The notes under the pieces are model-generated. The model was given only the letters and a program-made list of their open reading frames with translations, did no database searches and was not told where the DNA came from. This document shows, in pieces, positions 3,135 to 62,061 of a DNA stretch of 64,000 bases; the stretch's first letter is position 1; every line of letters starts with the position of its first letter. The DNA is from a phage. Both the position numbers and the translations under genes were made by a program. The DNA lies in the sequence record OZ346151.1. One strand, given 5' to 3'.

Positions 3135-4175
3135 ATGTCAAAACCTAGTTTTCCATTAGAGATTTGGGCAGAGGAGGATCAGGTTCTGCCTAACACCCAC
3201 AGACAGAACAGGCTACGCCCGATCGATGATTTGTGGAGAAAAGGTTGGGATCTTGGTCAAAAGCCATCCTGTGAAGAACTTAACTATATTTTCAATATGC
3301 TCGGAACTTGGGCAAAATACATTGCTGACGAGCAGATCCCCGCTCAAGAAGGCCGTTATCTGGTACGTGATAATAACTTGAGCGATCTTTTGAACATCCC
3401 TGTTGCCCGTAGAAACCTTGGGATTATCACTAAGGAAGAGGCAGACGCCAGGTATGTAAAAGTTACAGGTGATACAATGACAGGCCCCTTGGGGTTGCAA
3501 CGTATCAACTTTAAAGCTGCCGAGACAGATAAGGCTTGGATAGAGACAACTATTGGCCCAGATAAGACAACTCTCGACTTTGGGTTAAGTGATAATACCG
3601 GGTCGTTTGATGATGGTGGTACATCTACAGTGGATGCGTTTCGTTGGAGATTCCAGCCAACTCAGCCGGATATTAATCCAGAGTTCACTTTGATGTACCT
3701 TAACGCGATCACGGCTAATCGTGCGCTGTTGAAAGTGGTAGGCAATGTTGAAGTTGTCGATAACATGAGGTGCAATAACCTTACTATCAGCAATACAGCA
3801 ACATTCACCAACTGTAATGTGGCTAGTCAGTTGACGGCTGGGTCAGTATATGTTAATGGTGGTGCAAGTTGTGACAGTATGGTTGTAAGAAGCCAGCACT
3901 GTGTTGTCGGTAACAGAAATGTGGTGCGCTCCGTGAATGGAGTGACGGCTAACGGTAACGGTGATGTAACGATCACTATCCCGCAGACAGGTGTGCAAGA
4001 CATCAGAATCGGTGCAAGACTTGTGGACGGCGTTTCTGAATCTCCAATCCGCAACGGCTACGTTGTCACAGGCTGGCATTTCGGTGACAAAAAAGAGATG
4101 CGTGGTTCAACCTACTGGGCAGGACCCTTACAAAAACTTGTAAATGGTCAATGGATCACTGTTAATTATGCATAG
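3135..4175 (+). CDS. tail fibre protein, paralogue 1 (346 aa)
   Basis: AGGAGA RBS; N-terminus MSKPSFPLEIWAEED and C-terminus QKLVNGQWITVNYA nearly identical to the 5188..6231 paralogue; Gly/Asn/Thr-rich C-terminal half typical of fibres. Confidence 0.55.
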   Translation: MSKPSFPLEIWAEEDQVLPNTHRQNRLRPIDDLWRKGWDLGQKPSCEELNYIFNMLGTWAKYIADEQIPAQEGRYLVRDNNLSDLLNIPVARRNLGIITKEEADARYVKVTGDTMTGPLGLQRINFKAAETDKAWIETTIGPDKTTLDFGLSDNTGSFDDGGTSTVDAFRWRFQPTQPDINPEFTLMYLNAITANRALLKVVGNVEVVDNMRCNNLTISNTATFTNCNVASQLTAGSVYVNGGASCDSMVVRSQHCVVGNRNVVRSVNGVTANGNGDVTITIPQTGVQDIRIGARLVDGVSESPIRNGYVVTGWHFGDKKEMRGSTYWAGPLQKLVNGQWITVNYA

Positions 4176-5157: not shown

Positions 5158-5187
5158 AGTCCTAAGGAATTTTCTCAGGAGAACGTG

Positions 5188-6231
5188 ATGACTAAACCAG
5201 TTATCCCTCTTGATATTTGGGCCAATCAGGATGTTGTGCTTGAAAATACGGGAGAGTTGAATAAGTCTCAACCAAAAAAAGAAGAGAGATTGAAAGGTTG
5301 GGATATGACACAAAGAGTGGCATGTGAAGTTGTTAACTTTGAACTTCACATGCTTTCTGCGTGGTTAAAGCATTTAACAGAAGATGTTGTCCCAGGATGG
5401 GATAATAGATTCTTAAGGGTCACTAATAATCTAGCAGACGTTCCAGACAAAGCTGCTGCACGTCAAGTTCTCAATGTATACTCGCCTGAAGAAATGGACG
5501 ATCTGTATGTTGACAAGTCTGGAGACATAATGACTCAGACTCAAACTTTAGGCCTTCAAAGAATCGAGTTTGCATCTGCGTCAACAGACAATGCGGCAAT
5601 ATATACCACCATAACTCCAGACAAGACGACGATGGACTTCTGGATTATGGACAACATCGGTGGTGCTGACGGCACAGACCTTGATGATCCTTCTCACCAA
5701 ATAGACGGGTTCCGTTGGAGATTTCAACCTTCTGGTGGGCAGCCTGTGTTTTCGGCTATGAAGCTCAATGCTATAACTGCCAACCGTGCAAGACTGGCTA
5801 TCCAAGGAAATCTTGAATGCAACGATGCAAAAAGTTCCTCTGCAAATGCCAATGCGGTCACGATACCAAGAGCCACTGTTAACGGACAACAATCCTGCGG
5901 AAGCGCTCAAATAGGTGGAAGAGTTGATTGTAACGATGAAACCGTTAGAGGCCAATATGCAACCGTTGGTGGAAGAAACGTGGTCCGCAGGGTAAACGGT
6001 AACAGCGCAGACGGTAGTGGTAACCTTACTGTCCCTATGCCCAGTAGAGGGGTTGACGATGTAAGGATAGCGAACCGTTTCAAAACCACCTACAGAGAGT
6101 CAAGGGTCTACCCTGGACATGTGATGTGCTCTGGTAACTACGCTTATAAACACCCTTATCAAGGTGATTACTGGACAGGTGCTATCCAAAAACTTGTAAA
6201 CGGTCAATGGATCACTATATCTTATGCTTAA
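5188..6231 (+). CDS. tail fibre protein, paralogue 2 (about 347 aa)
   Basis: ATG after GGAGAA RBS; shares PLDIWANQD N-terminus, LGLQRIEF, FRWRFQP and QKLVNGQWITISYA C-terminus with 3135..4175. Confidence 0.55.
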   Translation: MTKPVIPLDIWANQDVVLENTGELNKSQPKKEERLKGWDMTQRVACEVVNFELHMLSAWLKHLTEDVVPGWDNRFLRVTNNLADVPDKAAARQVLNVYSPEEMDDLYVDKSGDIMTQTQTLGLQRIEFASASTDNAAIYTTITPDKTTMDFWIMDNIGGADGTDLDDPSHQIDGFRWRFQPSGGQPVFSAMKLNAITANRARLAIQGNLECNDAKSSSANANAVTIPRATVNGQQSCGSAQIGGRVDCNDETVRGQYATVGGRNVVRRVNGNSADGSGNLTVPMPSRGVDDVRIANRFKTTYRESRVYPGHVMCSGNYAYKHPYQGDYWTGAIQKLVNGQWITISYA

Positions 6232-17691: not shown

Positions 17692-17955
17692 TTAGAAACC
17701 CTCTAAAAAGCTCTTGTAGAAAATAATTTCAGTATCTACACCAGTCACGATCTTATCGTTCCTGATTTCATCTGTAAGGTAGGTGTCAAAACGCAGAACC
17801 TGTGTGGTGTTGTCACACATCCACTCAGCTGTGACCATTGCGAAAATCTTAGCATCTTCATTATCTGGTGTGAATGTTACCACCTCACCGCACTTAAACT
17901 TTTCGATAGGCTGAGTGTTAGCTTTCGGTTCTGCGATAGTGATTTTTGTGGTCAT
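17692..17955 (-). CDS. small protein, tandem paralogue family (87 aa)
   Basis: Same length class as neighbours; FKCGEVV motif. Confidence 0.45.
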   Translation of the reverse strand: MTTKITIAEPKANTQPIEKFKCGEVVTFTPDNEDAKIFAMVTAEWMCDNTTQVLRFDTYLTDEIRNDKIVTGVDTEIIFYKSFLEGF

Positions 17956-18218
17956 TATTCTCCTCCTTCTTTTGAATAGCTTGTCTCTCCAAGGATGGTA
18001 ATTTTGGTGTCAAGCTCTGTAACTTTCATGTTTGGCGGCAGATCGTACAACTCATTATTTTCTAAATCGAACCCCCACACACAATGTTCTCCTGTTTTGA
18101 CAATCATAACTATGTTTTGAATGCCGTCTCCGTCGCAACTTACCACAGTCCCACACGGAAAGCTGTCTGCACGCTTTTTGTTCTTCACCTTAGAATTGAA
18201 TACAATGCTGGTAGCCAT
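17955..18218 (-). CDS. small protein, tandem paralogue family (87 aa)
   Basis: MAT N-terminus, K-rich segment, PCGTVV, FDL and I-x-I-L-G-E shared with 18218..18481. Confidence 0.5.
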   Translation of the reverse strand: MATSIVFNSKVKNKKRADSFPCGTVVSCDGDGIQNIVMIVKTGEHCVWGFDLENNELYDLPPNMKVTELDTKITILGETSYSKEGGE

Positions 18219-18481
18219 TATTGTTCCTCCACCATAACTTCGCCAATAATTTCTATGCAGGCATCCATTTCTGTAACAACCAAACTGTGAGGTAGTTCTA
18301 CAAACACCTTTCTGAACAGGTCAAATACCCCAACATATATGTTTGCAGGATGTGATTTTACAACAAGTGCTGTATTCACATCCCCAAGTTCATCAACAAA
18401 CATCACCACAGTGCCTGGAGCTACTGAGGACAGATACTTCTTAGTTTTACGGTTTGATGCAAATTTTAACTCTGTTGCCAT
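18218..18481 (-). CDS. small protein, tandem paralogue family (87 aa)
   Basis: MAT N-terminus, PGTVV, FDL, IEIIGE; clear paralogue of 17955..18218. Confidence 0.5.
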   Translation of the reverse strand: MATELKFASNRKTKKYLSSVAPGTVVMFVDELGDVNTALVVKSHPANIYVGVFDLFRKVFVELPHSLVVTEMDACIEIIGEVMVEEQ

Positions 18482-38350: not shown

Positions 38351-38605
38351 ATGAAAATTACTCTGAAGCCAGAATGCGTTGAAAATGACCGAGCTTTTAA
38401 AGATTGCACAATCGGTGCAATTTATGAAGCAGAGTTTTGTGAGAACCCTTTGGTAAAAGCCCTTCTGGAAGAAGGAGCTCCTCTATCACAGGAAGAGCTT
38501 GATGAGTTGGAAAACTCAGCACAGTGCCTTACCTTTAAAGATGATGAAGGAGACTCTGTCTGGTGCACTGTTAATGAAGTAGTTTTTGTAAAACCTGAAC
38601 ATTAA
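38351..38605 (+). CDS. small acidic protein, paralogue pair member (84 aa)
   Basis: AAGGAG RBS; shares AF(K/R)DCT and KDD(E/Q)GD...CT motifs with 38669..38941. Confidence 0.45.
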   Translation: MKITLKPECVENDRAFKDCTIGAIYEAEFCENPLVKALLEEGAPLSQEELDELENSAQCLTFKDDEGDSVWCTVNEVVFVKPEH

Positions 38606-38668
38606 TGCTTGACAACAGTCATAGGGCCTACTATAATGGCCCTATCAAAACGAAAGGGGACCACAGCA

Positions 38669-38941
38669 ATGACCAAACAATATCAACGAATTAAAGCCAA
38701 GGTTAAGCCAGACTATCTGGAGAAGGACTCTGCTTTTCGGGACTGCACAGCTGACAAAGTTTACACAGGGGCCGTCCTGTTGAACGATGAACTTGAAGTA
38801 GATATTCTGGGTAAAGAGGCCACTATTAAGGACGACCAAGGCGATTATGTTTGCTGCACCACACGTGAGCTAGAAATCTTAGAATACTTCGGTGAAATCT
38901 TCACCTCTCTTGATGATTACTTAGATGATGAGGAAGCGTGA
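38669..38941 (+). CDS. small acidic protein, paralogue pair member (about 90 aa)
   Basis: ATG after AAAGGGGA; paralogous to 38351..38605. Confidence 0.45.
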   Translation: MTKQYQRIKAKVKPDYLEKDSAFRDCTADKVYTGAVLLNDELEVDILGKEATIKDDQGDYVCCTTRELEILEYFGEIFTSLDDYLDDEEA

Positions 38942-58982: not shown

Positions 58983-59378
58983 TTACTGAAACAGTGCGGA
59001 TAAATTACCTTCTGGTGGGAACTTATCTGCCAAAAACGGTGTTAGCACAGTAGCCTTCTGAAGATCTGGGGTCCACTCGTTGTTCAGAACATCCCAGTAG
59101 TACGCAATGTTGCTGTGTGGGTGCCGCATTACGAACTTTTTCCCTTCGTAGTCGTCTGAAACCTCTACAGAAGAAATAACAACAGAATCTTCAAGGGTTT
59201 CTTCATAGAAAGATCCCCCTTCAAATTTCCAACGAGATGCAAGAGCCCCTGCCTTGAACGCTGCAGATAACGGACTGTCGGCAAGAACATACATTTCTTG
59301 CACTCTGTCGCTGCGATCTTTGCTTCTTACGTTGTATACAGTATCTGAGCTATACTCAACACGGTATAGGCTTACCAT
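58983..59378 (-). CDS. hypothetical protein, paralogue of 61190..61588 (131 aa)
   Basis: Shares H-P-x-S ... YW ... W-T-P segment with 61190..61588. Confidence 0.5.
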   Translation of the reverse strand: MVSLYRVEYSSDTVYNVRSKDRSDRVQEMYVLADSPLSAAFKAGALASRWKFEGGSFYEETLEDSVVISSVEVSDDYEGKKFVMRHPHSNIAYYWDVLNNEWTPDLQKATVLTPFLADKFPPEGNLSALFQ

Positions 59379-59710
59379 TACCGCACCTCCTCAATAACTT
59401 CCACATCTGAACCTACCACAAATGCAAAAGGACAGGTTTCATGAAAGACATCTGGATCGCCGCCAAGCTTGCTAACAATCTCTCCACCACTAATAAACAC
59501 AAGCTCACCGATATTCATCAGATTGCTGAAATAGTACCCATAATGATTAAAGAATGCAGCAGGGTCAGGTAGACTGGTAGCCTCAAGCACTACATCGGTT
59601 GAGGTTACTTTCTTATCATAACCTCTCGCCTTTTGAGATGCAAGATCTGCAGAATCCTCAGGAGACCGGAGATGCACAGGAATTGTTTCACCAATAAAGC
59701 GTACTTTCAT
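59378..59710 (-). CDS. hypothetical protein (about 110 aa from second ATG)
   Basis: Preferred start gives MKVRFIGE, matching the family N-terminal pattern. Confidence 0.4.
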   Translation of the reverse strand: MKVRFIGETIPVHLRSPEDSADLASQKARGYDKKVTSTDVVLEATSLPDPAAFFNHYGYYFSNLMNIGELVFISGGEIVSKLGGDPDVFHETCPFAFVVGSDVEVIEEVR

Positions 59711-59714
59711 ATTA

Positions 59715-59978
59715 TCACCCAACAACCATAGCTTCAAAAGGAGTCATGAACGAATAAACGGCATCATCATCTGCTTCAGGGAATGCTCCCAAAGACTTCA
59801 TATCTGAACCCTTGACAAATACAAGGTTTTGATCAAAGGCTTCTTGGGGGTCAATCCGATACATATTTCGTAGAATATCGCTTACCTCCTCATCAAGAGG
59901 TGAGTATGCTGTGCACGTTTTTCCGATCAAGCTTTGAGAATCAGGGTATCCACCTGAAGTTTTAAAATAAACAATCAT
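59715..59978 (-). CDS. hypothetical protein (87 aa)
   Basis: ATG start in compact array. Confidence 0.4.
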   Translation of the reverse strand: MIVYFKTSGGYPDSQSLIGKTCTAYSPLDEEVSDILRNMYRIDPQEAFDQNLVFVKGSDMKSLGAFPEADDDAVYSFMTPFEAMVVG

Positions 59979-60069
59979 ATAGTATCACCTCTGGTAAGAG
60001 ATTGGGATTCCTTTCCCACAAATAATTACAAATCTTCCTTATCGAGGAAGTATGCTAATCCAAGCAGGA

Positions 60070-60339
60070 TTATTCCTCTACAATCTCATACACATCAGGA
60101 GTTACAATCAACTCTTCTCCGTTACCCGGTGCAACAAACACCACCAAACCTTCAGGTGTGTGCTTTTTAGCCATCTCGATAACATCTTCTCGCAGAGCTG
60201 GCTCCATCAGATCAAAACCTTCACCCAGGGCATCACGAACCACCTTCATATAGTCAACTGGTTGTGCTTCAACAATCATGCCTTCAACCAGTCCACAGTT
60301 TTTGTCTGCCAGCTCAGTTTTGAATAATTTAATTTTCAT
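60070..60339 (-). CDS. small acidic protein (89 aa)
   Basis: N-terminus MKIKLFKTE, C-terminus YEIVEE. Confidence 0.45.
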   Translation of the reverse strand: MKIKLFKTELADKNCGLVEGMIVEAQPVDYMKVVRDALGEGFDLMEPALREDVIEMAKKHTPEGLVVFVAPGNGEELIVTPDVYEIVEE

Positions 60340-60476
60340 TTAGAGGTCTCCTCAATTATTTGATATTAATAGCCGTAACCTAACACATTAACTACAACTG
60401 CGATTGCAAACATAATTTCAAAGCATGCAATCTCTACATTTGGGACTAATTTCTTAATCACACCCATTGTAGCACC

Positions 60477-60797
60477 TCATTCTCCAAAGTCAATCTTTAC
60501 TTTGCCTTTCCCCTTACCTTTCTTTCCACCGCATTTAGCCAGCTGACGTGCTGCAACATCTACCATACGGTCAGTTGCCTCGTAAGCATCACTGCCTTTA
60601 GCCTTGGCAATAACTTCTTTTCCAGAATTGTCAAAAATGAACGCCATAACTTCCTGGTGATCATTTTCAACTTTTACACTTACACGTGCATAGTTAACAG
60701 AGGGATGTAAACGCTCCAGCTTGGACATTTTGCGGGAAATAAAAGATACCATACCTTCTGTGATTTCTACATTGTTGCCAGTGATTTCAATTTGCAT
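60477..60797 (-). CDS. hpf: ribosome hibernation promoting factor / RaiA (YfiA) family homologue
   Basis: N-terminus MQIEITGNNVEITEGM closely matches bacterial HPF MQLNITGNNVEITEAL; length 106 aa with KLERL, V-x-V-K-V-E and ARQLAK segments at corresponding positions; Lys/Gly-rich C-terminal tail. Confidence 0.7.
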   Translation of the reverse strand: MQIEITGNNVEITEGMVSFISRKMSKLERLHPSVNYARVSVKVENDHQEVMAFIFDNSGKEVIAKAKGSDAYEATDRMVDVAARQLAKCGGKKGKGKGKVKIDFGE

Positions 60798-60881
60798 AAC
60801 GTGTTCCTTTTAAGGAAGAGGGAATAACTATCTCTCTTTGAAAACAATGATACTAAATCTGAAGCGTTGTGTCAACAGTTT

Positions 60882-61172
60882 TTACAGCTTGTTGTCGATA
60901 GTTTTTAAAATATCCACAGCAAGATCTGCCATTTTTCGAACATACTCTGCAAACTCAACAGGATCCTTGATCAAAGAATTCACAGGGTCGTACCCTAGAG
61001 CGTTTAAAATGGCTGCAGCATCTACAACCTTCTCATCATTTGCGAAGATCTCTCCGTCAAACTTGTAGGTCCATTTTGAGTCAACCTTAGCAGAGCAGGG
61101 TTTGTCCATGCTTGTTACACCATCGTCTTTAAACTCTCCTGCGTTATCAATATTTAGAATTAAATCCATCAT
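60882..61172 (-). CDS. hypothetical protein (96 aa)
   Basis: ATG start in compact array. Confidence 0.45.
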   Translation of the reverse strand: MMDLILNIDNAGEFKDDGVTSMDKPCSAKVDSKWTYKFDGEIFANDEKVVDAAAILNALGYDPVNSLIKDPVEFAEYVRKMADLAVDILKTIDNKL

Positions 61173-61189
61173 GGTGACACCTCACTGTT

Positions 61190-61588
61190 TCAGTTTAGCT
61201 TTTCTTCAACAACCCCATAACTTGGGGCAGAGTCAAGAGCTTTCTGGTTTAAAAGTGGCGTAGCAGAATCTGCAAACGGTGTCCAAGTTTTTGTTCTGGA
61301 ATTCCAGTAATGCTTCACTCTGGAATCTGGATGCACTATAACAAAAACTTTTTCACTTGTCAACACATTAATTTCTTCTACACCCTTGCTGATAATTTCT
61401 CCGTCATAGCCCCCAGTCTGGTATCCTTCGTACCAGGTTCTTGCATAGGCATAGCCAGCCTGCCAGCATGCAGCCTCCTCCGAGGTGGAGACTACGTAGA
61501 AGTCTTTCTCAAATTCCGGAATACGCCCTTGCTTTACGCTCCAAGCTCCGCGAATTTTCATTGTTACTTTGAAAAGCTTGTTCTTCAT
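61190..61588 (-). CDS. hypothetical protein, paralogue of 58983..59378 (132 aa)
   Basis: VHPDSRVKHYWNSRTKTWTP parallels RHPHSNIAYYWDVLNNEWTP. Confidence 0.5.
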   Translation of the reverse strand: MKNKLFKVTMKIRGAWSVKQGRIPEFEKDFYVVSTSEEAACWQAGYAYARTWYEGYQTGGYDGEIISKGVEEINVLTSEKVFVIVHPDSRVKHYWNSRTKTWTPFADSATPLLNQKALDSAPSYGVVEEKLN

Positions 61589-61589
61589 A

Positions 61590-61844
61590 CTACCGCTCTA
61601 CAATCTCTACGTCTGTTCCTACACCGAAGGCATAGTAATGTTCTTCCCCAAAGTAATACTTGGGGACACCCGCTTTGATCAGATCTAACCCGCGAATAAA
61701 TACCACACCGTGTGATACAGTGGAATGCTTCTGACGCACAGGATCGTTGTCAGGCAACCATTCAAAGTACACCGCAGGTACAACCTTTCCCTTCAGGAAG
61801 GATTGTCCCAAGTAGACGTTAGAATCAAGAATTTTAACCTTCAT
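61590..61844 (-). CDS. small protein, paralogue of 61834..62061 (84 aa)
   Basis: MKVKILDSNVYLGQ ... TDVEIVER versus MKVKVLDSSFYIGQ ... EDAEIVED. Confidence 0.5.
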   Translation of the reverse strand: MKVKILDSNVYLGQSFLKGKVVPAVYFEWLPDNDPVRQKHSTVSHGVVFIRGLDLIKAGVPKYYFGEEHYYAFGVGTDVEIVER

Positions 61845-62061
61845 TCTCGTCCTCCACTATCTCTGCATCCTCACCAAGGGCAAAGTTGTAGGTCCACTGG
61901 CTGTCAAAGCAGTCCTGAGATGCACCAGCGGCAATAAGATCTGCACCTTTTATTTTTAAAAGGTCAGGATAATCTTCGTTAGGGATAGCGGTAAACACTT
62001 TCCCCACTAAGGGCTCCTGACCAATATAGAAGCTTGAATCTAAAACTTTAACTTTCATCAA
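61834..62061 (-). CDS. small protein, paralogue of 61590..61844 (75 aa)
   Basis: See paralogue; overlapping stop/start. Confidence 0.5.
   Translation of the reverse strand: MMKVKVLDSSFYIGQEPLVGKVFTAIPNEDYPDLLKIKGADLIAAGASQDCFDSQWTYNFALGEDAEIVEDENEG

What the first reader, a model, noticed from the sequence alone, without database searches (positions are those of the whole stretch)
60477..60797. Phage-encoded ribosome hibernation factor (HPF/RaiA) homologue
The N-terminal 16 residues and overall length closely follow bacterial HPF/YfiA, which binds the 30S decoding region to inactivate ribosomes. A phage copy inside an array of small early-type genes suggests direct manipulation of host translation.
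Basis: partly seen in the sequence, partly recalled or inferred. Interest (0 to 1): 0.65.

Follow-up and report, generated by a model that had tools for sequence, protein, structure and literature searches.

The report
Known rV5-phage ribosome hibernation factor homologue
This gene really is a phage copy of the bacterial ribosome hibernation factor HPF, but it has been annotated in rV5-like coliphages since 2006 and was published and partly tested in 2019, so it is a known feature whose function is still unproven.

Summary
The ORF at 60477-60797 (minus strand, 106 aa) is real. It is a full-length member of the HPF/YfiA (Ribosomal_S30AE) family: Pfam E=4e-15 over residues 3-89, TIGR00741 above its cutoff, and 43% identity to E. 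coli HPF.

The window is a Vequintavirus (rV5-like coliphage), and the gene is rV5 ORF144. More than 100 GenBank records already annotate it. Mizuno et al. 2019 described it and expressed it in E. coli. They did not find it in salt-washed ribosomes and saw no change in 100S. The finding is therefore already known.

New here:
- The phage lineage is an old, isolated branch. No cellular homologue exceeds about 45% identity, and its GC content is phage-like.
- It is under strong purifying selection (dN/dS about 0.05).
- It keeps R83/Q84/K87/K91 and K23/K26 but has lineage-specific changes at otherwise conserved ribosome-contact positions (E51, T53, H55, K80, K89).
- It carries a unique disordered Gly-Lys tail.
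- It has its own conserved sigma-70-type promoter.

My best reading is a salt-labile occupant of the HPF/RaiA site that competes with host hibernation factors, not a shut-off toxin. This is inferred, not shown.

The parts
60477..60797 (-). CDS of 106 aa plus stop codon: phage HPF/YfiA-family protein, orthologue of rV5 ORF144 (ABI79209)
   Evidence: The ORF is listed. Pfam PF02482 matches at E=4e-15 and TIGR00741 scores 56.8 bits against a cutoff of 40.9. E. coli HPF structure 2rql matches at E=4e-15 over residues 1-90. The rV5 copy is 97% identical. dN/dS is 0.04-0.18 among seven Vequintavirus copies.
60534..60797 (-). Residues 1-88: folded S30AE domain (strand 2-8, helix 14-30, strands 34-43, 48-56 and 61-68, helix 71-90)
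   Evidence: In the AlphaFold2 model, pLDDT is about 90 or higher over residues 1-80. Foldseek gives TM 0.92 and rmsd 1.1 A to V. cholerae HPF 4hei, and rmsd 1.2 A to ribosome-bound E. coli HPF 6h4n_x.
60480..60533 (-). Residues 89-106: CGGKKGKGKGKVKIDFGE, a Gly-Lys-rich basic tail predicted to be disordered and specific to the phage lineage
   Evidence: pLDDT is below 50 from residue 91 onward. The tail has 6 K, 6 G and 2 acidic residues. No comparable tail occurs among the cellular homologues inspected, which carry the K-[HY]-K-x-K motif instead. The tail is conserved across Vequintavirus copies, with one in-frame 2-residue deletion.
60847..60875 (-). Sigma-70-type promoter-like site, TTGACA-17 nt-TATCAT, equivalent to P144 of the rV5 record
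   Evidence: The consensus scan matches 11 of 12 positions. DQ832317 annotates it as 'Sigma70-type promoter; P144'. The -35 block AAACTGTTGACAC is invariant in five Vequintavirus copies and in the divergent uncultured lineage L003. Promoter activity has not been shown.
60805..60809 (-). Shine-Dalgarno-like AAGGA, 7 nt upstream of the ATG
   Evidence: Read directly from the sequence. It is conserved in the Vequintavirus copies aligned.

Best explanation
The gene encodes the Vequintavirus (rV5 gp144-type) member of the HPF/YfiA ribosome hibernation factor family. What is shown: it has the family's sequence signature and predicted fold, it is under strong purifying selection, and a host-type sigma-70 promoter motif sits immediately upstream. 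What is inferred: host RNA polymerase transcribes it soon after infection. The protein then binds vacant host 30S/70S particles in the channel between the head and body of the small subunit, the tRNA/mRNA site used by HPF and RaiA, through the retained K23/K26 and R84/Q85/K88/K92 surface (E. coli R83/Q84/K87/K91). It has lost several otherwise conserved contacts (E. coli E51, T53, H55, K80, K89) and has replaced the K-H-K-x-K tail with a longer, flexible Gly-Lys tail. I therefore expect weaker, salt-labile binding and RaiA-like behaviour. That would mean it competes with host HPF/RaiA and probably occludes the RMF-dependent route to 100S. Idle ribosomes would then stay as protected but readily reusable 70S particles during infection, rather than translation being shut off.
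For: Family membership and fold are supported. Most family-conserved residues are retained: 19 of the 25 positions where the consensus residue reaches at least 65% among 141 cellular homologues. These include R83, Q84, K87, K91, K23 and K26, which the cryo-EM analysis in bioRxiv 10.1101/2025.10.07.680626 lists among the 16S rRNA contacts. Selection is strongly purifying, with dN/dS 0.04-0.18 and dS up to 0.7. The gene is retained at the same position in a sister lineage that is only 64-66% identical. A conserved sigma-70-type -35 box lies upstream in both lineages. Derived residues shared by both phage lineages sit at contact positions, and the tail is unique and disordered. The published data fit weak binding and low toxicity. 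Cells induced with 1 mM arabinose from the preculture onward grew to OD600 1 with normal 70S profiles, and the protein was present in the crude extract but absent from ribosomes after a 0.5 M NH4Cl cushion. One further lead: host RaiA is listed in the washed ribosomes of the bS21- and bL12-expressing cells but not in those of the phage-HPF-expressing cells, although it is present in their crude extract.
Against: Ribosome binding has never been demonstrated for this protein, and the only experiment was negative. The RaiA-absence lead comes from single unreplicated shotgun runs with low spectral counts (6 and 1). Two of the five basic residues of the alpha-2 track (K80, K89) are missing, as are E51, T53 and H55, so binding could be lost rather than merely weakened. 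Whether the tail reaches the RMF site is a guess based on its length. Timing of expression is not known.
Confidence: 0.5

Rival explanations
1. Host translation shut-off, the reading the first reader implied. The phage HPF binds tightly to the decoding region and inactivates host ribosomes, or drives them into 100S dimers, as an early take-over function.
For: It is homologous to factors that block the A and P sites. It lies behind a sigma-70-type promoter in an array of small genes.
Against: Continuous pBAD expression allowed growth to OD600 1 with normal 70S profiles and no increase in 100S, and the protein was not retained on ribosomes. A stoichiometric blocker of vacant ribosomes would also hit phage translation. 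The protein lacks K80 and K89 and differs at T53/H55. It scores only 65 bits against the HPF equivalog model, whose cutoff is 125.
Confidence: 0.12
2. Neofunctionalised HPF fold. The protein no longer binds the ribosome and instead uses the dsRBD-like/S30AE fold and the basic tail to bind another RNA or protein, for example a phage or host mRNA, a tRNA, or a host factor.
For: The published ribosome association test was negative. The branch is long and isolated, and the protein is as far from E. coli HPF (43%) as RaiA is from HPF (40%). Both phage lineages share residues that occur at 0-1% frequency in 141 cellular homologues, at positions 17, 51, 53, 70, 74 and 89. F53 and F55 lie on strand beta-3, where cellular HPFs carry ribosome-contact residues (T53, H55).
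Against: The residues that contact m4Cm1402 and neighbouring nucleotides (R83, K87, K91) are kept, as are K23/K26, Q84 and the family's core residues, and they are kept under strong purifying selection. The salt wash and growth phase used in the negative test are conditions under which hibernation factors are easily lost; this point is my own knowledge, and the authors raise the same caveat.
Confidence: 0.2
3. Ribosome shield against nucleases or abortive-infection toxins. By occupying the decoding channel of idle ribosomes, the protein protects 16S rRNA from host RNases or ribosome-targeting defence toxins activated by infection.
For: This rests on family knowledge only: HPF-type factors protect ribosomes from degradation (e.g. 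PMC8406268, abstract listed). Binding at the decoding site would cover the relevant nucleotides. Nothing found here is specific to this reading.
Against: I found no defence-related context or literature for this gene. This reading overlaps with the best explanation and differs only in which benefit selection acts on.
Confidence: 0.1

Closest known systems
rV5 gp144 / ORF144 (ABI79209), 'sigma 54 modulation factor' or 'ribosome hibernation promoting factor' of Vequintavirus phages
   Same: It is the same gene: 97% amino-acid identity, the same position in the small-gene array, and the same upstream promoter P144. It has been described as a virus-encoded HPF and tested by expression (PMC6375957), and it was noted again in PMC6969025.
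   Different: The window copy is the 106-aa allele with the N8-N9 pair, as in phages nomo, slur16 and MaxBurger. rV5 itself has 105 aa with a single Asn.
E. coli HPF (YhbH), short-form hibernation promoting factor (PDB 2rql, 6h4n)
   Same: It shares the fold (rmsd 1.2-1.6 A) and 43% identity over 92 residues. K23, K26, R83, Q84, K87 and K91 are conserved.
   Different: The phage protein falls below the HPF equivalog cutoff (65 vs 125 bits). It has V, G, F, F and M in place of K80, K89, T53, H55 and D51. Its tail is 11 residues longer and Gly-Lys rich, replacing KHKDKLKQH. It has a phage context instead of the rpoN operon, and expressing it produced no effect on 100S.
E. coli RaiA (YfiA, protein Y)
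   Same: It shares the fold and the binding-site family. Like RaiA, it has a C-terminal extension beyond the HPF length, and this is the basis for expecting RaiA-like interference with RMF.
   Different: Identity is only 25%, and the RaiA equivalog model scores 22.8 bits against a cutoff of 158. The RaiA tail is acidic at its end (…NFVEEVEEE), whereas the phage tail is strongly basic. RefSeq's name 'ribosome-associated translation inhibitor RaiA' for the phage protein is a family-level label, not evidence of RaiA function.
Other virus-encoded S30AE proteins (Cronobacter phage GAP32 AFC21633; PHROG 8990)
   Same: They belong to the same Pfam family and are also carried by large myoviruses. PHROG 8990 matches weakly at E=1e-7.
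   Different: They are separate lineages. tblastn at E<=1e-3 finds the window protein only in Vequintavirus records, and the protein has its own family, PHROG 12469. Independent acquisitions were already proposed by Mizuno et al..

Membership tests
HPF/YfiA family (Pfam PF02482 Ribosomal_S30AE; NCBIfam TIGR00741) | Full-length HMM match above the curated cutoff | tested here: met
   PF02482 scores 56.7 bits against a cutoff of 23.7, matching residues 3-89 to profile positions 1-83 of 88. TIGR00741 scores 56.8 bits against a cutoff of 40.9.
HPF/YfiA family (Pfam PF02482 Ribosomal_S30AE; NCBIfam TIGR00741) | [quoted passage not shown] | tested here: met
   This is a predicted structure only. The AF2 model has pLDDT 84, with elements E2-8, H14-30, E34-43, E48-56, E61-68 and H71-90. 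The top 36 Foldseek PDB hits are all HPF/RaiA/pY, with a best TM-score of 0.92 and rmsd 1.1 A.
HPF/YfiA family (Pfam PF02482 Ribosomal_S30AE; NCBIfam TIGR00741) | Basic track on helix alpha-2 that contacts 16S rRNA (E. coli K80, R83, K87, K89, K91) | tested here: inconclusive
   Three of the five residues are kept (R84, K88, K92 in window numbering). K80 is replaced by V and K89 by G. Among 141 cellular homologues, V occurs at position 80 in 12% and G at position 89 in 1%. The contact list is taken from the preprint read.
HPF/YfiA family (Pfam PF02482 Ribosomal_S30AE; NCBIfam TIGR00741) | Binds the 30S decoding channel of vacant ribosomes | not testable with these tools
   The published expression test did not detect the protein in ribosomes washed with 0.5 M NH4Cl from cells harvested at OD600 1. 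The authors themselves consider this inconclusive.
Short HPF equivalog (E. coli YhbH type; NCBIfam NF007780) | Score at or above the equivalog cutoff | tested here: not met
   The score is 65.2 bits against a cutoff of 125. In an NJ tree the phage clade is not nested among Enterobacterales HPFs (0 of 200 bootstraps).
Short HPF equivalog (E. coli YhbH type; NCBIfam NF007780) | About 95 aa, ending in the K-[HY]-K-x-K-x-K short tail | tested here: not met
   The protein has 106 aa and the tail KCGGKKGKGKGKVKIDFGE.
Short HPF equivalog (E. coli YhbH type; NCBIfam NF007780) | Converts RMF-induced 90S dimers into 100S | not testable with these tools
   The published profile showed no discernible effect on 100S when the protein was expressed in wild-type E. 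coli. It has not been tested in an hpf/raiA mutant background.
RaiA/YfiA equivalog (NCBIfam NF007654) | Score at or above the equivalog cutoff, and a long C-terminal tail with an acidic end | tested here: not met
   The score is 22.8 bits against a cutoff of 158, and identity is 25%. The tail is basic, with 6 K against 2 acidic residues.
Long-form HPF (Gram-positive/Thermus type) | C-terminal dimerisation domain following the S30AE domain (about 180-190 aa in total) | tested here: not met
   The protein has 106 aa, and the 18 residues after the domain are predicted to be disordered.

The most novel reading that the evidence does not exclude
The phage protein is an anti-hibernation factor: a deliberately weakened HPF. 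It displaces host RaiA/HPF from dormant ribosomes and blocks RMF-dependent 100S formation through its Gly-Lys tail. It is itself easily evicted by initiation factors, tRNA and mRNA. This would let rV5-like phages recruit the hibernating ribosome pool of slow-growing gut E. coli. The reading is compatible with the lineage-specific loss of K80/K89/T53/H55/E51 contacts, the salt-labile behaviour in the published assay, and the absence of host RaiA from ribosomes of cells expressing the phage protein in the published MS tables. Mizuno et al. already floated a related idea of competition with the cellular homologues.
Probability: 0.2. Interest if true: 0.65.

Novelty: already known. Interest (0 to 1): 0.25.

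Why it matters
Virus-encoded ribosome-associated proteins are one of the few routes by which phages could reprogram translation directly. The rV5-type HPF is the only cultivated-coliphage example with an easy genetic system: E. coli K-12 hosts, many isolates, and the BASEL phages. Its presence is not news. What remains open is whether it binds ribosomes at all, and whether it promotes hibernation, mimics it or antagonises it. The residue-level differences and the tail described here give concrete mutants and assay conditions for settling that question. If it proves to be an anti-hibernation factor, that would bear on how phages infect non-growing bacteria.

Tried and rejected
1. A structured 5' leader that sequesters the SD. 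RNA folding of window 60780-60846 (minus strand) gave -9.2 kcal/mol with z=-0.6 against shuffles, which is unremarkable. The stem AAGAGGG/CCCTCTT seen in rV5-type copies has a mismatch in the window copy.

2. RNA genes or Rfam families in the window. None were found: no Rfam match at gathering thresholds and no tRNAs.

3. A second HPF paralogue next door. The 89-aa gene at 60070-60339 is labelled 'sigma 54 modulation factor' in some records. It has no S30AE match and no similarity to the HPF, so this is a propagated misannotation.

4. Recent capture from the host. I rejected this. The best cellular identity is 43-44%. An exhaustive phmmer search of 1.84 billion representatives gave only one hit below 1e-10, and that hit is the sister phage lineage. 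The gene's GC content of 41% matches the phage array. An NJ tree could not identify a donor, but it is a crude distance tree on 88 columns and should not be over-read.

5. A shared tail motif with RaiA (VK.D..F.E). I treat this as a chance resemblance. MAFFT does not align the two tails in register, and the tails have opposite charge.

6. More divergent phage lineages to test the signature residues. The IMG/VR scan returned only 2 loci, both Vequintavirus-like. The word-index protein search returned only 5 proteins.

7. A promoter-density argument for 'early' genes. The consensus scan found 3 promoter-like sites against 3.5 expected in 59900-61300, so only the individual conserved site counts as evidence.

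8. Later experimental literature on phage HPF. Five full-text searches found nothing beyond Mizuno 2019 and Mathieu 2020, and the BASEL paper does not mention it.

Full report
**What is at the coordinates**

The ORF listing gives an ATG-started ORF at exactly 60477..60797 on the minus strand, 106 aa plus the stop codon (sequence read). The protein is MQIEITGNNVEITEGMVSFISRKMSKLERLHPSVNYARVSVKVENDHQEVMAFIFDNSGKEVIAKAKGSDAYEATDRMVDVAARQLAKCGGKKGKGKGKVKIDFGE.
- Pfam Ribosomal_S30AE (PF02482) matches residues 3-89 against profile positions 1-83 of 88, with E=4.2e-15 and 56.7 bits against a gathering score of 23.7.
- NCBIfam TIGR00741 (HPF/YfiA family) scores 56.8 bits against a cutoff of 40.9.
- phmmer against PDB sequences finds E. 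coli HPF (2rql, 4v8h, 6h4n) at E about 4e-15 over residues 1-90.
- BLASTP gives 43% identity to E. coli HPF over 92 residues (E=1e-21) and 25% to RaiA (E=2e-7). The two E. coli sequences were checked against PDB chains.

**Fold**

I built an AlphaFold2 model from a shallow alignment of five phage-lineage sequences. It has mean pLDDT 84 and pTM 0.74. The order of elements is strand 2-8, helix 14-30, strands 34-43, 48-56 and 61-68, then helix 71-90. Residues 91-106 are predicted to be disordered. In a Foldseek search of the PDB, the 36 best matches (E<=0.001) are all HPF, RaiA/protein Y or plastid pY structures. The best are V. cholerae HPF 4hei (TM 0.92, rmsd 1.1 A) and ribosome-bound E. coli HPF 6h4n_x (rmsd 1.2 A).

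**Whose gene it is, and whether it is new**

- megablast of 59500-62000 finds 121 phage records. The best is Escherichia phage nomo at 99.4%, and almost all are Vequintavirus (rV5-like myoviruses of about 136 kb).
- tblastn with the protein finds it in 119 records. In 118 of them it is at least 90% identical. The 119th is a Salmonella chromosomal HPF at 42%.
- In the rV5 reference record DQ832317 the gene is ORF144, named 'sigma 54 modulation factor'. That record also annotates a 'Sigma70-type promoter P144' just upstream.
- Other records call it 'ribosome hibernation promoting factor', 'ribosome hibernation factor' (BASEL phages) or 'ribosome-associated translation inhibitor RaiA' (RefSeq).
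- Mizuno et al. 2019 (Nat Commun, PMC6375957) list ABI79209 among virus-encoded ribosomal proteins, aligned it and placed it in a tree. They then expressed it from pBAD24 in E. coli NM522.
- In that experiment, ribosomes were pelleted through a 0.5 M NH4Cl sucrose cushion from cells harvested at OD600 1. The viral HPF was detected in the crude extract but not in the 70S or 100S fractions, and the 100S peak did not change.
- Mathieu et al. 2020 (PMC6969025) again note an hpf gene in five rV5-like gut isolates.
- Five full-text searches found no later functional work, and the BASEL paper does not discuss the gene.

The finding is therefore already known.

**Evolutionary position**

- An exhaustive phmmer search of 1.84 billion cluster representatives gave 141 hits at E<=0.001 but only one below 1e-10. 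That hit is P0004, 103 aa and 66% identical.
- P0004 lies at the same position in an equivalent array of small genes on uncultured contigs of 124-126 kb. Only about a third of that region aligns to Vequintavirus genomes, at 70-78% nucleotide identity. P0004 therefore represents a sister phage lineage.
- All other hits are cellular HPF/RaiA proteins at 24-44% identity.
- Over the 88 core columns, the phage protein is 43% identical to E. coli and Citrobacter HPF, 39% to Yersinia and Serratia HPF, and 35-36% to Mixta, Pantoea and Idiomarina HPF.
- By comparison, E. coli HPF is 64% identical to Idiomarina HPF and 40% to its own paralogue RaiA. The phage protein is thus about as far from E. coli HPF as RaiA is.
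- In a distance (NJ) tree the three phage sequences are monophyletic in 200 of 200 bootstraps. Their sister group consists only of Enterobacterales HPFs in 0 of 200. This is a crude tree on few columns, so I conclude only that no donor can be identified.
- The gene's GC content is 41.1% and its GC3 is 34.6%. This matches the surrounding phage array (41.8% GC) rather than E. coli, which is about 51% from my own knowledge.
- Nei-Gojobori dN/dS among seven Vequintavirus copies is 0.04-0.18, with dS up to 0.7.

Taken together, this is an old resident of the phage lineage that is kept under strong purifying selection. It is not a recent capture, which differs from the 'relatively recent' transfer suggested in the 2019 paper. 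It is also narrowly distributed:
- tblastn at E<=0.001 finds it only in Vequintavirus records of the phage collection.
- An IMG/VR scan returned two further loci, both Vequintavirus-like.
- It forms its own PHROG, 12469, distinct from the general S30AE PHROG 8990.

**Residue-level comparison**

I aligned the protein with 141 cellular homologues and tabulated each E. coli HPF position.
- There are 25 positions where one residue reaches at least 65% in the cellular set. The phage protein has the consensus residue at 19 of them. These include G7, T13, K23, K26, L27, V39, E44, G58, A63, D69, Y71, D75, D79, R83, Q84, K87 and K91.
- The six exceptions are L41V, E51M, M70A, I74T, K80V and K89G.
- Other positions carry residues that are absent or rare in the cellular set: R17V (0%), T53F (0%), H55F (4%) and H88C (0%).
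- Most of these changes are shared with the sister lineage P0004 or paralleled in it: V17, S51, R53, F55, A70, T74, T80 and S89. They are therefore old and maintained, not decay.
- A cryo-EM comparison of HPF- and YfiA-bound ribosomes (bioRxiv 10.1101/2025.10.07.680626) gives the contacts. K80, R83, K87, K89 and K91 form a strictly conserved basic track on helix alpha-2 that contacts 16S rRNA, with R83 on m4Cm1402. T53 and residue 62 contact m2G966. H55 and E60 contact the C-terminus of uS9. K26 and Q29 contact the phosphates at 1496/1497.
- By that list, the phage protein keeps three of the five track residues plus K26 (with R at position 29), and it has changed K80, K89, T53 and H55.
- Across 19 listed contact positions I count about 7-8 identities to E. 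coli HPF. That is roughly the same as the overall identity, so contact positions are neither specially preserved nor specially eroded.

I read this as the same binding site with altered, probably weaker, contacts. This is an inference from sequence only.

**The tail**

Cellular homologues end helix alpha-2 with R-Q-[LIV]-x-K-[HY]-K-x-K. The phage protein has RQLAKCGGKKGKGKGKVKIDFGE. This is 11 residues longer than E. coli HPF, with 6 Lys and 6 Gly among the last 18 residues, and it is predicted to be disordered. None of the inspected cellular tails resembles it. It is conserved among Vequintavirus copies, apart from one in-frame two-residue deletion. The sister lineage has a different basic tail (KYSKSKGIDKRTAKWDY), and both tails end in K-[I/W]-D-[F/Y]. 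With only two lineages, that motif is merely suggestive.

In E. coli, what separates RaiA from HPF functionally is RaiA's C-terminal extension, and RaiA inhibits RMF-mediated 100S assembly (summarised in PMC13152769, citing Ueta 2005 and Polikanov 2012). A longer tail on the phage protein is the reason I expect RaiA-like rather than HPF-like behaviour. The phage tail is basic, however, whereas the end of the RaiA tail is acidic.

**Expression signals and context**

- A TTGACA-17 nt-TATCAT site lies at 60875-60847 on the minus strand, matching 11 of 12 consensus positions. It corresponds to P144 of the rV5 record.
- Its -35 block AAACTGTTGACAC is invariant in five Vequintavirus copies and in the divergent lineage L003, where the downstream leader is otherwise different.
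- The region as a whole is not enriched in promoter-like sites: 3 were found against 3.5 expected.
- An AAGGA Shine-Dalgarno-like sequence sits 7 nt before the ATG. The leader shows no unusual folding (z=-0.6).
- None of the ten flanking small genes scanned has a Pfam match, and all belong to PHROGs of unknown function. The HPF homologue is thus the only gene in this stretch with a recognisable family.
- 'Early' expression is plausible from the host-type promoter, but it has not been shown. The rV5 genome paper reports only predicted promoters and transcription units.

**A lead from the published supplementary tables**

- Host RaiA (P0AD49) is listed in the salt-washed ribosomes of cells expressing viral bS21 (one spectrum).
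- It is also listed for cells expressing viral bL12 (score 137, 6 spectra, similar to S14 and S17 in that sample).
- It is absent from the 71-protein list for ribosomes of cells expressing the rV5 HPF.
- Yet RaiA, host HPF, RMF and the viral HPF are all present in the crude extract of those same cells.

This is what displacement of RaiA by a salt-labile competitor would look like. However, these are single shotgun runs with low counts and no empty-vector list, so I treat it only as a reason to repeat the experiment quantitatively.

**Mechanism and rivals**

What is shown: family membership, the predicted fold, purifying selection, and a conserved promoter motif.

What is inferred: the protein binds the HPF/RaiA site of vacant host ribosomes more weakly than the cellular factors, and it competes with them and with the RMF route to 100S. 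Idle ribosomes would then be kept usable. I give this confidence 0.5.

The rivals are as follows.
- **Shut-off function (0.12).** Normal growth and normal ribosome profiles of expressing cells count against it.
- **Neofunctionalised fold with a non-ribosomal partner (0.2).** The negative binding test and the unusual residues favour it. Retention of R83/Q84/K87/K91 and K23/K26 under strong constraint counts against it.
- **Nuclease or toxin shield (0.1).** This overlaps with the main model and has no specific support here.

**Family filing**

The protein is a member of the HPF/YfiA family at the family level. It is not an equivalog of E. coli HPF (65 bits against a cutoff of 125) or of RaiA (23 bits against 158), and it is not a long-form HPF. 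The RefSeq name 'RaiA' and the old name 'sigma 54 modulation factor' should both be read as family labels.

**Verdict**

The feature is already known, and its function is still open. I score interest as low to moderate (0.25). The gene itself is not surprising to a specialist, but the system is tractable, and the residue and tail differences give specific experiments.

Noticed in passing
window 60070-60339 (-): This 89-aa gene, two genes downstream of the HPF homologue, is annotated 'sigma 54 modulation factor' in several Vequintavirus records (e.g. nomo_102; '(x2)'). It has no Pfam S30AE match and no similarity to the HPF protein. The label looks like a misannotation that has been propagated.
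   Followed up: yes
Mizuno et al. 2019 Supplementary Data 2-5 (PMC6375957): Host RaiA is listed in salt-washed ribosomes of cells expressing viral bS21 and viral bL12. It is absent from ribosomes of cells expressing the rV5 HPF, although it is present in their crude extract. The runs are unreplicated, but the pattern fits competition for the same site.
   Followed up: partly
window 58983-59978 and 61190-62061 (-): The HPF module is flanked by paralogous small genes in the same order. Upstream are PHROG 5009 (61834-62061 and 61590-61844) followed by PHROG 7379 (61190-61588). Downstream are a weak PHROG 5009 match (59715-59978), then PHROG 13661, then PHROG 7379 (58983-59378). This suggests an old segmental duplication around a cassette that carries its own promoter.
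   Followed up: partly
window 60366-60467 (-), with a promoter-like site at 60493-60466 (-): A conserved 33-aa hydrophobic ORF (rV5 ORF145, PHROG 15151; MGVIKKLVPNVEIACFEIMFAIAVVVNVLGYGY) follows the HPF gene after 9 nt. A TTGACT-16 nt-TACAAT site with an extended -10 TG overlaps the 3' end of the HPF gene. No gene is called in the corresponding 83-nt gap of the sister lineage loci.
   Followed up: no
phage collection records MG0656xx ('Campylobacter phage C12, C14, C2, A12a...'): Eighteen records labelled Campylobacter phage, with host given as Campylobacter jejuni, carry this region at about 96% nucleotide identity to E. coli Vequintavirus genomes. The host label looks doubtful for typical rV5-like coliphages.
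   Followed up: no
window 3135-4175 and 5185-6231 (+); 17692-18481 (-); 38351-38941 (+): There are other paralogue pairs elsewhere in the window: two proteins of about 347 aa at 43% identity, and neighbouring genes of 87 aa (17955-18218 and 18218-18481, 38% identity; a third 87-aa gene at 17692-17955 lies alongside) and of about 84-110 aa at 35-38% identity. I did not examine them further.
   Followed up: no
window 60034-60050 (-): A weak terminator-like hairpin (6-bp stem, poor T-run) lies just after the 89-aa gene. Together with the promoter at 60847-60875, it would delimit a three-gene unit of HPF, the 33-aa ORF and the 89-aa ORF. The rV5 record does not annotate it.
   Followed up: no
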